DNA of 64,000 nucleotides, from the NCBI RefSeq assembly GCF_009914755.1, contig NC_060935.1; one strand, 5' to 3'. Made by a program: the position numbers and the translations under genes. This document shows, one piece after another, positions 58,022 to 60,334 of the stretch. Each line of letters starts with the position of its first letter. Position 1 is the stretch's first letter. Source of the stretch: the human T2T-CHM13v2.0 reference genome, Homo sapiens. The notes under the pieces are model-generated. The model made no database searches, was not told where the DNA came from, and worked only from the letters and a program-made list of their open reading frames with translations.

Positions 58022-59391
58022 TTTCCAAACTCCACTCCCAACACACTTAAGGCTGCCATCTTGCACAATTCTAGTTGCTCCACATTATAGTCTATGAGCA
58101 CAGAGGTAGAAATACTAGATGCATTCACCTAGTACAGATATCTTTCCCAAAGGAACGTATTTAATTTATACTTTTATATATATATTCAACATCAGAAATA
58201 ATTGATAATAACTGGTCTCATGCGATGGAATAATTGTTTCTGAAATGGTTAAGTTTTAATATGTACATATGGAACAAGCATAAATAACCATCAGATACGA
58301 CTTTGGCATGATTCTGAAGTTATCTGCCATTCTTCTATCACTACCCAGTTGGTGAAACAGAATTTTGTGTCTCATTATAATATTTCTCATCCTCTCACTC
58401 ACAGCAGATGAGACTAAAGTCTCTCCTCCTGGTGCCTTGATAATTTTTGTCATTTAATATTTATATGTATCTCATTACATATTTATCACTTACCTGTGTG
58501 ACATTTGGACTGGAAAGCTCTTGAGGAAAATAGACTACATCTTAAAGTCACAGTTCTCTGAAGACCCACAGATGCACCTCCAAAAAAGAATTACTCCTTC
58601 AGAGGGGCAAGAACTGTCTTCTCTGGTTTAGAGGTTTTAAAAATAAAAGTCCAGTGATGTTTGTTGCCATGGATCTAGCTTGTGGGGCAGCCAGTCTGAG
58701 AGATGTAGGAGAGAAAAAATGTCCCAATGGTGTACAAGCTCCTGGAGTTCCTGTCATCTCCTGCCCTTCCTTCAGTGAGCTCATAATTTTTTTAAGCTAA
58801 TATGAGTTCGGTTTTGTTGCTGTTGTTACTTGGAATTAGAAACCTGAATAATAAATAATAAAGCATGGATAATCATGTTGTAATACTATGACATCATATT
58901 CTTATATCTCTGGGTGAAAATGCTCTTTCTCTAAAGGTCACTAGACAGATTTGGACCAAAACTATCCAGATTGTTAATGCCCCAAACCCCCCAAATTTCC
59001 AGGGATTTGAGGCTACCATGAGATATACCTCATGCTCCATGGTCTCCAGAAGGAATTATCATAGAGAATGGACCTTTTCAGTTTCTAGCCTGAGACTGGA
59101 AATGTCAGTCTACCGTCAGAGATACAAAACTGAGTCAGATATGGAGAAGAGCTTTCTGTGATGGGATAGGGGTTACAAGACTCAGACTAAGCTTACAAGA
59201 TGTAGGTGTAATATATAAAGAGCACTTACATGCTTTGTAAGAGTTTTACTCTTCTGTGAGACTTTTTCAATCCAAAGCACAGTAACGAGAAGCATAACCA
59301 AATTCGAAAACCTAGGCTCCATTCTGAACATTAACGAGTTTCATGAGGCTTAAGCAACAATACCACATCTCTGATTGTATAGAAAGGGCAC

Positions 59392-59428
59392 GGCCGTGAT
59401 CGTATAGTGGTTAGTACTCTGTGTTGTG
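59392..59428 (+). pseudogene. Tailless retrocopy of the 5' half of tRNA-His(GTG)
   Basis: gccgtgatcgtatagtggttagtactctgtgttgtg matches tRNA-His-GTG nt 1-36 with one CpG transition; flanked by TSD tgtatagaaaggg(c/t)ac at 59376-59391 and 59427-59442. Confidence 0.95.
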
Positions 59429-60334
59429 TATAGAAAGGGTACAAATTCGTTGCCCAGGTACTCATTCAAAGAAGTCACAGTTTATCTAAAGTACAGTAAG
59501 ATCCAGCGTCTTCTCTCACTGATGACATTTTCACTAACAGGTGACATTATTTTGTGGTTTGTGTTTCATCTCCCTTTCTATTTTCCTCCTTACCTCACAG
59601 CCAGTTGCTAATAAATAATAAAATGAGCAAAGGCAGATAGCAAGAAAGAGAAGCAGAGGAGCAAATCGCATGAATAACCCCAAACAACACAGACTTACCC
59701 TGAGTACTCAAGAGCTGCTGATCTGCAAAATTATAGTGTATCCTAGAGAGCCTCTTGCTTTCCAAAGGCTGCAGACTCTACAGTAATTACCTAATCAATA
59801 AGTACAATCCCTTTGCATTGAGCAGATTTGCATTTTTCAGGCAGAGAAATGAGAAATAGAGTAAGTGAGGGAATTACTTTATTAAGAAATCCTTCCATGT
59901 GTACAGGGTTTTATAGCTCACGGTGAACTTCACATTCATTATCATGTTGTATTAGCCAGCAAACACTGTAAGATAGTTAGAAAAGATATAGTTATTCACA
60001 CCCAATGAAAGAGCAAACTCAAACTCACAGATGTTCTCTAGGTAGCCCTAATTCATGCACCTGGGAAGTCTTAGAGATGGGACTTAAAACCAGGACCTGT
60101 ATTCCTAGTTCAGGAGTCTTCTTATTAAATTGTCTGGCCTGAGGATCAGGAGCATTTGGCCCTTAGGTTCACTCCATTTATTTTTTTGGTAAGGTATTTC
60201 CTCTGATGATTTAATTAACATATGCCATTTATAGAGCATTTATAATACAAGTAAAGCAGATACAAATCACTCAAAACTGGAAATTGAATGCTAAAAGTAG
60301 TTTAACATGCATTTTTCTAACTTTTTTGTTGTAC

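What the first reader, a model, noticed from the sequence alone, without database searches (positions are those of the whole stretch)
59376..59442. Retroposed 5' half of tRNA-His with an apparent G-1 and an end at the anticodon: a possible fossil of a processed tRNA half
Seen: a 16-bp direct repeat tgtatagaaaggg(c/t)ac (59376-59391 and 59427-59442) brackets exactly 35 nt, G + GCCGTGATCGTATAGTGGTTAGTACTCTGtGTTG, with no poly(A). This is tRNA-His(GTG) nt 1-34 plus one extra 5' G; the first two TSD bases (TG) also match anticodon nt 35-36. Established: eukaryotic tRNA-His receives G-1 post-transcriptionally (Thg1/THG1L); anticodon-loop cleavage (e.g. by angiogenin) yields 5' tRNA halves; L1 machinery makes tailless retropseudogenes primed by microhomology. 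Inference: the template was mature tRNA-His, either a pre-cleaved G-1..G34 half or a full tRNA primed internally at the anticodon. The class is known, but this copy may record germline tRNA processing at base resolution. It is also a possible mis-mapping site for tRNA-half reads.
Basis: partly seen in the sequence, partly recalled or inferred. Interest (0 to 1): 0.8.

Follow-up and report, generated by a model that had tools for sequence, protein, structure and literature searches.

The report
Catalogued tRNA-His tailless retropseudogene, possible G-1
This is an old LINE-1-made copy of the first half of a histidine tRNA, of a well-described kind and already listed in a published catalogue; its one extra leading G may be the G that cells add to this tRNA after transcription, but that could not be proven here.

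Summary
A 15/16 direct repeat (59376-59391, 59427-59442) brackets G plus tRNA-His(GTG) nt 1-34, with no A tail. The class is the 'tailless retropseudogene' of Schmitz 2004 and Noll 2015. This locus appears to be listed already in Noll 2015 Table S2 (hg19 chr11:109473924-109473959, HisGTG).

A search of the same genome found 12 tRNA-His copies that end at the anticodon. In 10 of the 11 with target-site duplications (TSDs), the duplication starts with TG, which matches nt 35-36. The eleventh runs through G36. The template therefore carried U35 and G36. It was not a half cut at U33 or G34, where published halves end. Internal priming just 5' of m1G37 is the best reading.

The G-1 claim survives two of its refuters. 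All 9 identical genes have C or T at -1. Two more copies carry an unmatched G at -1, against 0 of 18 Gly/Lys control copies. However, 4 clean copies have no -1 base and 2 have A. No primate empty site could be examined. I put G-1 at about 0.55. Interest is low to moderate.

The parts
59376..59391 (+). Left target-site duplication, TGTATAGAAAGGGCAC
   Evidence: 15/16 identical to 59427-59442. Its first two bases, TG, equal tRNA-His nt 35-36.
59392..59392 (+). Extra G directly 5' of tRNA nt 1; candidate G-1. It is preceded by C, so it sits in a CpG.
   Evidence: gap = 1, extra 'G', while the base after the right TSD is A; all 9 identical genes have C or T at this position, and this is the only exact genomic match to G plus nt 1-18.
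59393..59426 (+). tRNA-His(GTG) nt 1-34, 33/34 identical to the gene (C30>T at 59422, a CpG transition)
59427..59442 (+). Right target-site duplication, TGTATAGAAAGGGTAC. Bases 59427-59428 (TG) are the microhomology with U35-G36.
   Evidence: One search aligns the tRNA through nt 36.

Best explanation
The element is a LINE-1-mediated 'tailless retropseudogene' of cytoplasmic tRNA-His(GTG). Shown: it is a copy of nt 1-34 (36 if the shared TG is counted), starts at the RNase P-processed 5' end, has no A tail and is flanked by a 16-bp target-site duplication. Inferred mechanism: L1 endonuclease nicked the bottom strand at ...GAT/TGTATAGAAA. The freed 3' end (...CA-3') paired with U35-G36 in the open anticodon loop of a tRNA-His that reached at least G36. 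Reverse transcription then ran to the 5' end of the RNA. Pairing never extends past G36 in 10 of 11 family members. The likely reason is that position 37 is m1G, which cannot form a Watson-Crick pair and blocks reverse transcriptases; this step is an inference. The extra G at 59392 is most likely the post-transcriptional G-1 of tRNA-His, copied as the last templated base (sub-claim, about 0.55). The element has no evident function. Its practical consequence is that it is the only perfect genomic match for short reads that carry G-1.
For: Anatomy.

Class and catalogue entry: Noll 2015 main text sections 15, 16 and 18 describe internal priming in loops, target complementarity and the target consensus TT/WAAAAWW. 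Supplement file 2 lists chr11:109473924-109473959 as HisGTG among 9 HisGTG entries, 7 of them 36 nt long.

Family census in the same genome: 12 copies end at the anticodon. TSDs start with TG in 10 of 11 (P = 9e-12 at 1/16 per site, 1e-9 at 0.1). L014 runs through G36 without microhomology.

Control: 16 of 16 Gly-TCC copies with good TSDs break at nt 33-38 with homology up to about A38, and 0 of 16 start with TG.

Published 5' halves end at G34 or U33. m1G37 is documented in human tRNA-His.

G-1 sub-claim: the -1 base of the 9 identical genes is C (7) or T (2), and never G. The variant gene and the pseudogenes also have C or T. An unmatched G at -1 occurs in 3 of 11 His copies: the window copy, L076, and L079 judged by eye. 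It occurs in 0 of 18 Gly/Lys controls (Fisher p = 0.045). Most extra 5' bases in the controls (6 of 9) match the 5' leaders of the source genes read (GAT, CG and T for Gly; T for Lys), whereas the His extras (G, A) match no His leader. If the junction base were part of the TSD, 5 mismatches in 11 at a 6.2% background rate has P = 3e-4.
Against: The target site (GAT/TGTATAGAAA) fits the published TT/WAAAAWW consensus only loosely.

Internal priming on a full tRNA cannot be told apart from priming at the 3' end of a fragment that ends exactly at G36. The m1G37 role is an inference and was not tested.

Against G-1: 4 family members with clean junctions (L013, L015, L017, L072) have no -1 base at all. 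Two have A rather than G (L014, L062). No copy has T, although U-1 is about 20% of mature tRNA-His. The G lies in a CpG and the right flank reads CA at the same place, which is what CpG decay of a 17-bp TSD would give. The Fisher test is marginal, one of its three positives (L079) was called by eye, and its controls are only two other tRNA families. The census is a lower bound because it used pattern searches with at most 3 mismatches.
Confidence: 0.85

Rival explanations
1. The template was a pre-cleaved 5' tRNA-His half (G-1..G34, angiogenin-type), so the element is a fossil of a tRNA half.
For: The unambiguous insert ends at G34, which is the 3' end of 98% of BT-474 5' His halves. Most family members lack the -1 base, as do more than 75% of those halves.
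Against: 10 of 11 family TSDs begin with TG, matching U35-G36, which a half ending at G34 does not have (P about 1e-9 or less by chance). If a primer ending in ...CA-3' had paired with U33-G34 of such a half, the junction would show one TG, not the two observed. L014 carries T35 and G36 as insert sequence. With 4 of 9 copies lacking a -1 base, the family sits at the low edge of what the half pool predicts (P = 0.049). Noll 2015 found no support for truncated-RNA templates in 5S and U2 RNA.
Confidence: 0.05
2. The extra G is target DNA. The TSD was 17 bp (...GGGCACG), and the right copy lost its CpG (CG>CA) after insertion. The template then had no -1 base, like four other family members.
For: Left reads CAC-G and right reads TAC-A. 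CG>CA is the commonest human substitution, and the insert's own difference from the gene is also a CpG transition. Four clean family members lack a -1 base.
Against: It needs a rare CpG in the target plus decay in one copy only. The same left-G, right-A pattern recurs at L076 and L079, where the preceding base is A or G, so no CpG is involved. Junction-adjacent mismatches occur in 5 of 11 copies against a 6.2% TSD background (P = 3e-4).
Confidence: 0.15
3. The extra G is an untemplated base, added by the L1 reverse transcriptase at the end of the cDNA or during 5'-junction repair, and is unrelated to THG1L.
For: Extra bases at the 5' junctions of retrocopies are common. Three of the 16 Gly controls (CT, AG, GGG) have extras that match none of the leaders I read. 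Two His copies carry A rather than G.
Against: All five His extras are purines (3 G, 2 A) and none is a pyrimidine. No single unmatched G was seen in the 18 controls. The one cited example of untemplated addition, by a group II intron reverse transcriptase, adds A to the cDNA, which reads as T on the sense strand. That is a different enzyme from L1's.
Confidence: 0.2
4. The template was a tRNA-His fragment ending exactly at G36, cut between G36 and m1G37. It was primed at its 3' end, not internally on a full-length tRNA.
For: Homology with the target stops at G36 in 10 of 11 copies; only L017 has G at the third TSD base. A 1-36 fragment would give this pattern as well.
Against: Published 5' His halves end at U33 or G34, not G36. 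Family members with 5' leaders and other end points (L005 in the T loop, L083 in the D arm) show that whole precursors served as templates. Noll 2015 argues for internal priming in the class as a whole.
Confidence: 0.12

Closest known systems
Tailless retropseudogenes (Schmitz et al. 2004, Genome Res 14:1911; Noll et al. 2015, Genome Biol Evol 7:889, PMC5322556)
   Same: It derives from a small RNA, starts at the RNA's 5' end and is truncated 3' in a loop. It has no oligo(A) tail, has TSDs, and the start of the TSD is complementary to the RNA at the break. A record that appears to be this locus is in Noll's Table S2, with 8 other HisGTG entries.
   Different: Nothing differs in kind. The target site is less A-rich than the published TT/WAAAAWW consensus, and the complementarity is only 2 nt, the lower end of the published 2-18 nt. 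The text I could read (main text, and supplement by term search) does not mention the His -1 base. Schmitz 2004 was not available.
5'-tRNA-His(GUG) halves / SHOT-RNAs (Shigematsu & Kirino 2017, PMC5238791; Pawar et al. 2020, PMC7745994)
   Same: They cover the same stretch of the tRNA (nt -1 or 1 to about 34) and show the same 5' heterogeneity, with or without the -1 base.
   Different: Halves end at U33 or G34. The retrocopy template included U35 and G36. The element is DNA made by reverse transcription, not a cleavage product.
Classical L1-mobilised retrocopies (Alu, processed pseudogenes, tRNA copies with CCA plus poly(A))
   Same: Target-primed reverse transcription with TSDs. Two tRNA-His copies of this classical kind exist in the genome: L054 and L039, both with CCA followed by an A run.
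   Different: There is no A tail. Priming is by 2-nt microhomology inside the anticodon loop rather than on poly(A).

Membership tests
Tailless retropseudogene (Schmitz 2004 / Noll 2015) | Sequence derived from a small cellular RNA, beginning at or near the RNA's 5' end | tested here: met
   nt 1-34 are 33/34 identical to the tRNA-His(GTG) genes. The copy starts at nt 1 with one extra G.
Tailless retropseudogene (Schmitz 2004 / Noll 2015) | 3' truncation in a loop or other single-stranded region | tested here: met
   It ends at nt 34-36, inside the anticodon loop. 12 family members share this end.
Tailless retropseudogene (Schmitz 2004 / Noll 2015) | No oligo(A) tail | tested here: met
   The insert is followed directly by the TSD TGTATAG....
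Tailless retropseudogene (Schmitz 2004 / Noll 2015) | Flanking target-site duplications | tested here: met
   16 bp, 15/16 identical.
Tailless retropseudogene (Schmitz 2004 / Noll 2015) | Start of the target site complementary to the RNA at the break; target consensus TT/WAAAAWW | tested here: inconclusive
   The 2-nt TG microhomology is present here and in 10 of 11 family members. The site GAT/TGTATAGAAA matches the A-rich consensus quoted only loosely.
Tailless retropseudogene (Schmitz 2004 / Noll 2015) | Presence/absence pattern among primates (an insertion, not an ancestral sequence) | not testable with these tools
   No primate genomes are held. The flanks are unique in the genome, so no paralogue can stand in for the empty site. 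The locus appears only once in Noll's supplements (the Table S2 coordinate list), so no presence/absence pattern is given for it.
Retrocopy of an angiogenin-type 5' tRNA half | Template 3' end at the known cleavage site (U33 or G34), with no dependence on nt 35-36 | tested here: not met
   TSDs start with TG in 10 of 11 copies, and L014 includes T35 and G36. Halves end at U33 or G34.
Copy of G-1-bearing (THG1L-processed) tRNA-His | G at -1 that is not encoded at -1 of the source genes | tested here: met
   The 9 identical genes have C (7) or T (2) at -1. The variant gene and pseudogenes have C or T.
Copy of G-1-bearing (THG1L-processed) tRNA-His | The G is absent from the pre-insertion target (empty site) | not testable with these tools
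   No orthologous primate sequence is available. The only indirect evidence is that the base after the right TSD is A, and that unmatched G recurs at L076 and L079.

The most novel reading that the evidence does not exclude
Taken together, the tRNA-His tailless retrocopies are a small fossil record of the 5'-end state of germline tRNA-His. About a third carry the untemplated G-1 (window copy, chr19:1.61 Mb, chr22:24.3 Mb), about 4 in 9 start at G1, and none carries a leader base. All break at U35-G36 because m1G37 limits where the L1 primer can pair. If so, retrocopy junctions report both a 5' addition and an anticodon-loop methylation on the RNA that L1 met in the germline, at single-base resolution.
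Probability: 0.4. Interest if true: 0.45.

Novelty: already known. Interest (0 to 1): 0.25.

Why it matters
The element itself does not matter much. It belongs to a published class, it appears to be in the published catalogue, and it lies in gene-free DNA.

Two small points are useful.

1. It is the only place in T2T-CHM13 that exactly matches G-1 plus nt 1-18 of tRNA-His, and the match continues through nt 29. Short reads that carry G-1 have a mismatch at every real gene but a perfect match here. Pipelines that demand perfect genomic matches could therefore assign them to this pseudogene.

2. The family-wide junctions allow a cheap test of two ideas: that L1 copies tRNA-His molecules both with and without G-1, and that m1G37 sets the priming point. 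Primate alignments of three loci would settle the first.

Tried and rejected
- **Empty site by proxy.** Both flanks were searched against the whole genome for paralogous copies. Each matched only itself.
- **tRNA finders.** ARAGORN and Rfam found nothing at the locus. The Rfam hits in 59000-59800 all have E of about 0.7 or more and score far below their gathering thresholds, so I treat them as chance.
- **Schmitz 2004.** The paper is not held, either by DOI or by PMC id. Whether it comments on the His -1 base is unknown to me.
- **Leader-remnant reading of the extra G.** Rejected for His because no His gene has G or A at -1. It does explain most extras in the Gly-TCC and Lys-CTT controls.
- **DNA-level duplication of a gene fragment.** Rejected because of the exact start at nt 1, the TSDs and the absence of gene flanks.
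- **Dating.** One non-CpG difference in the TSD pair and one CpG change in the insert are too few for a useful age, so I give none.
- **L061 (chr4:173.4 Mb).** It ends at the anticodon, but no TSD was recognised. It was left out of all junction counts.
- **L078, L082, L077, L081.** These are not clear His retrocopies, or are gene-like pseudogenes, and were left out.
- **Literature.** Searches for Thg1 or G-1 together with retropseudogenes or retroposition returned 0 papers. A broader search on tRNA halves and retrotransposition (listing only) showed nothing specific.

Full report
**1. Observation**

One search shows TGTATAGAAAGGGCAC at 59376-59391 and TGTATAGAAAGGGTAC at 59427-59442. Between them lie 35 nt: a G at 59392, then GCCGTGATCGTATAGTGGTTAGTACTCTGTGTTG at 59393-59426. 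No A run follows.

- The repeat finder reports this 16-nt pair (94% identity) as the only close direct-repeat pair in 59200-59650.
- A pattern search of the window's own assembly, a 3.1-Gb human genome, shows that nt 1-29 are identical to the tRNA-His(GTG) genes.
- BLAST of a full gene (L001:1501-1572) aligns the locus over nt 1-36 at 97% identity, E = 6e-8.
- The only difference from the gene is C30>T at 59422, a CpG transition.
- ARAGORN and Rfam call nothing here, as expected for half a tRNA.

**2. What it is**

The anatomy is that of the 'tailless retropseudogenes' of Schmitz et al. 2004 and Noll et al. 2015. I read the following of Noll 2015 (PMC5322556): the abstract, sections 15, 16 and 18, term passages, supplement file 2 part 8, and term searches of the supplements. 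The paper describes:

- 3'-truncated small-RNA copies without A tails and with TSDs;
- truncation in loops;
- target sites complementary to the last 2-18 nt of the annealed RNA;
- a target consensus of TT/WAAAAWW.

It argues for internal priming rather than pre-cut templates.

Its coordinate table lists 'chr11 109473924 109473959 chr1.trna111-HisGTG' among 9 HisGTG entries, 7 of them 36 nt long. I ran no liftover. However, only one His fragment lies near 109 Mb on chromosome 11 in this assembly, and its length is also 36 nt. I therefore take it to be this locus. The element is thus a member of a known class and is apparently already catalogued.

Schmitz 2004 itself was not available.

**3. Family census in the same genome**

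I ran four overlapping patterns with at most 3 mismatches and one BLAST search. I inspected the flanks. These counts are lower bounds.

*Genes.* Nine genes have identical 5' sequence. Their -1 base is C in 7 and T in 2. The variant gene and the gene-like pseudogenes also have C or T at -1.

*Retrocopies ending at the anticodon.* There are 12:

| Locus | Position (T2T) |
|---|---|
| window (L008) | chr11:109.61 Mb |
| L013 | chr7:84.19 Mb |
| L015 | chr20:10.05 Mb |
| L017 | chr10:133.12 Mb |
| L014 | chr11:17.35 Mb |
| L062 | chr5:169.88 Mb |
| L072 | chr10:21.56 Mb |
| L073 | chr19:49.44 Mb |
| L076 | chr19:1.61 Mb |
| L080 | chr20:61.73 Mb |
| L079 | chr22:24.32 Mb |
| L061 | chr4:173.44 Mb |

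L061 has no recognisable TSD and is dropped from the junction counts.

*Other forms.*
- Copies with 5' leaders, made from pre-tRNA: L005, L056, L071 and L030.
- A copy truncated in the D arm: L083.
- Two copies with CCA plus an A run: L054 and L039.

**4. The 3' junction**

In 10 of the 11 copies with TSDs, the TSD begins with TG, the same as nt 35-36 of the tRNA. In the eleventh (L014), T35 and G36 are insert sequence. By chance this has P = 9e-12 at 1/16 per site, and 1e-9 even if TG is allowed a frequency of 0.1.

As a control I looked at Gly-TCC copies: 37 dispersed loci were fetched, and 16 had a TSD score of 9 or more. In these, the TSD starts at nt 33-38, homology runs to about A38, and none starts with TG.

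So the break point is specific to each tRNA, and for His it requires pairing with U35-G36. A half ending at G34 lacks those bases. Had a primer ending in ...CA-3' paired with U33-G34 of such a half, the junction would contain one TG, not the two seen. Published 5' His halves end at G34 (98% in BT-474 cells) or at U33. The 'processed half' reading is therefore not supported.

Homology stops at G36 in 10 of 11 copies; only L017 has G at the third TSD base. Human tRNA-His carries m1G37, which interferes with reverse transcription. My inference is that the L1 primer can pair only 5' of it. A template cut exactly after G36 would look the same and remains a minor rival.

**5. The 5' junction and the G-1 claim**

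The tally comes from my ungapped TSD script, with L079 judged by eye.

| State at -1 | Copies |
|---|---|
| No extra base; last TSD base is C, A, T, T | L013, L015, L017, L072 (4) |
| Unmatched G; base after the right TSD is A | window, L076, L079 (3) |
| Unmatched A; base after the right TSD is G | L014, L062 (2) |
| G present on both sides; uninformative | L080 |
| Ambiguous (a T-run length difference) | L073 |

If these junction bases were simply diverged TSD positions, 5 mismatches in 11 at the TSD background rate of 9/145 has P = 3e-4. Most of them are therefore real extra bases.

In the controls, extras are common, at 8 of 16 Gly copies. Most match the 5' leaders of the source genes:
- GAT (three copies) and T match the leader ...CAGAT;
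- CG matches the leader ...GTGCG of the chr1:160.6 Mb cluster;
- in Lys-CTT, T and GT match the leader ...CAGT.

No control with a good TSD has a single unmatched G: 0 of 18, against 3 of 11 for His (Fisher p = 0.045). For an unmatched single purine the figures are 0 of 18 against 5 of 11 (p = 0.0039). His leaders end in C or T, so the His extras are not leader remnants.

This pattern is what a His-specific -1 addition would give, but the evidence against must be stated as fully:
- four clean copies have no -1 base;
- two have A rather than G;
- none has T, although U-1 is about 20% of mature tRNA-His;
- the Fisher test is marginal and one of its three positives (L079) was called by eye;
- in the window copy the G sits in a CpG and the right flank reads CA, which is exactly what decay of a 17-bp TSD would leave.

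With 4 of 9 copies lacking a -1 base, the family is compatible with the published mature pools (P of 4 or more = 0.09 to 0.27). It sits at the low edge of the half pool (P of 4 or fewer = 0.049). These published pools come from cancer or kidney cell lines, not germline.

I put the G-1 reading of base 59392 at about 0.55, a target-derived G at about 0.15 and an untemplated base at about 0.2.

**6. What could not be done**

The decisive test is the empty site in an outgroup primate. It could not be run because no primate genome is held and both flanks are unique in this genome. Noll's supplements name the locus only once, in the coordinate table, so no presence/absence pattern is given for it. 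I give no age: one TSD difference and one CpG change are too few.

**7. Comparison, novelty and a practical point**

- The class is known, the mechanism is as published, and the locus appears to be in print. I rate it 'already known'.
- I found no paper linking Thg1 or G-1 with retropseudogenes (searches returned 0 papers; one search was a listing only, with nothing specific). Schmitz 2004 and the figures of both papers were not seen.
- The locus is the only exact genomic match to G plus nt 1-18 of tRNA-His, and the identity continues to nt 29. Short reads that carry G-1 fit this pseudogene better than any real gene.

**8. Verdict**

This is an ordinary, apparently catalogued tailless retropseudogene. 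The tRNA-half reading is rejected. The G-1 reading is plausible, unproven and cheap to test. Interest is 0.25.

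Noticed in passing
window 59392-59421 (T2T chr11:109613392-109613421): This is the only exact match in the whole assembly to G plus tRNA-His nt 1-18. All real genes have C or T at -1. Short reads carrying G-1 would map perfectly only here.
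   Followed up: yes
L005 (T2T chr2:225416284-225416340): A tRNA-His retrocopy made from a precursor. It keeps a 16-nt 5' leader similar to that of the chr15 genes and ends in the T loop (…GGTTCGA). Its TSD is GATATACCCAAATAA. It corresponds to the 57-nt HisGTG entry in Noll 2015.
   Followed up: partly
L017, L073, L076 (chr10:133.12 Mb, chr19:49.44 Mb, chr19:1.61 Mb): In three His retrocopies the target DNA just upstream of the TSD also resembles tRNA nt 29-34 (for example GCCTTTTGG against GCGTTGTGG). This may be chance arising from T-rich L1 sites, or it may be a role for homology on the far side of the nick. It remains unexplained.
   Followed up: no
L109, L119, L120, L113, L100 (Gly-TCC retrocopies); L126, L131 (Lys-CTT): Extra 5' bases of Gly and Lys tailless retrocopies match the last 1-3 leader bases of particular source genes: GAT and T for the L001 gene, CG for the chr1:160.6 Mb array, and T and GT for Lys-CTT. 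This points to templates with very short leaders and may allow individual source genes to be assigned.
   Followed up: partly
L113 (T2T chr10:22508504-22508535, minus strand): This Gly-TCC retrocopy has a perfect 22-bp TSD. The right flank after the TSD reads TGGCGTTG, which looks like the start of another Gly-TCC copy.
   Followed up: no
L054 (T2T chr1:112431752-112431830): A full-length tRNA-His copy with CCA and an A-rich tail. It has A, not G, before nt 1, and a degenerate TSD. A CCA-bearing template without a visible G-1 would be one more data point, but it is too decayed to score.
   Followed up: partly
window 59379-59388 / 59430-59439 and 59572-59581: A 10-nt stretch of the TSD (ATAGAAAGGG) has a perfect inverted match (CCCTTTCTAT) 132-183 nt downstream. 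This is probably chance.
   Followed up: no
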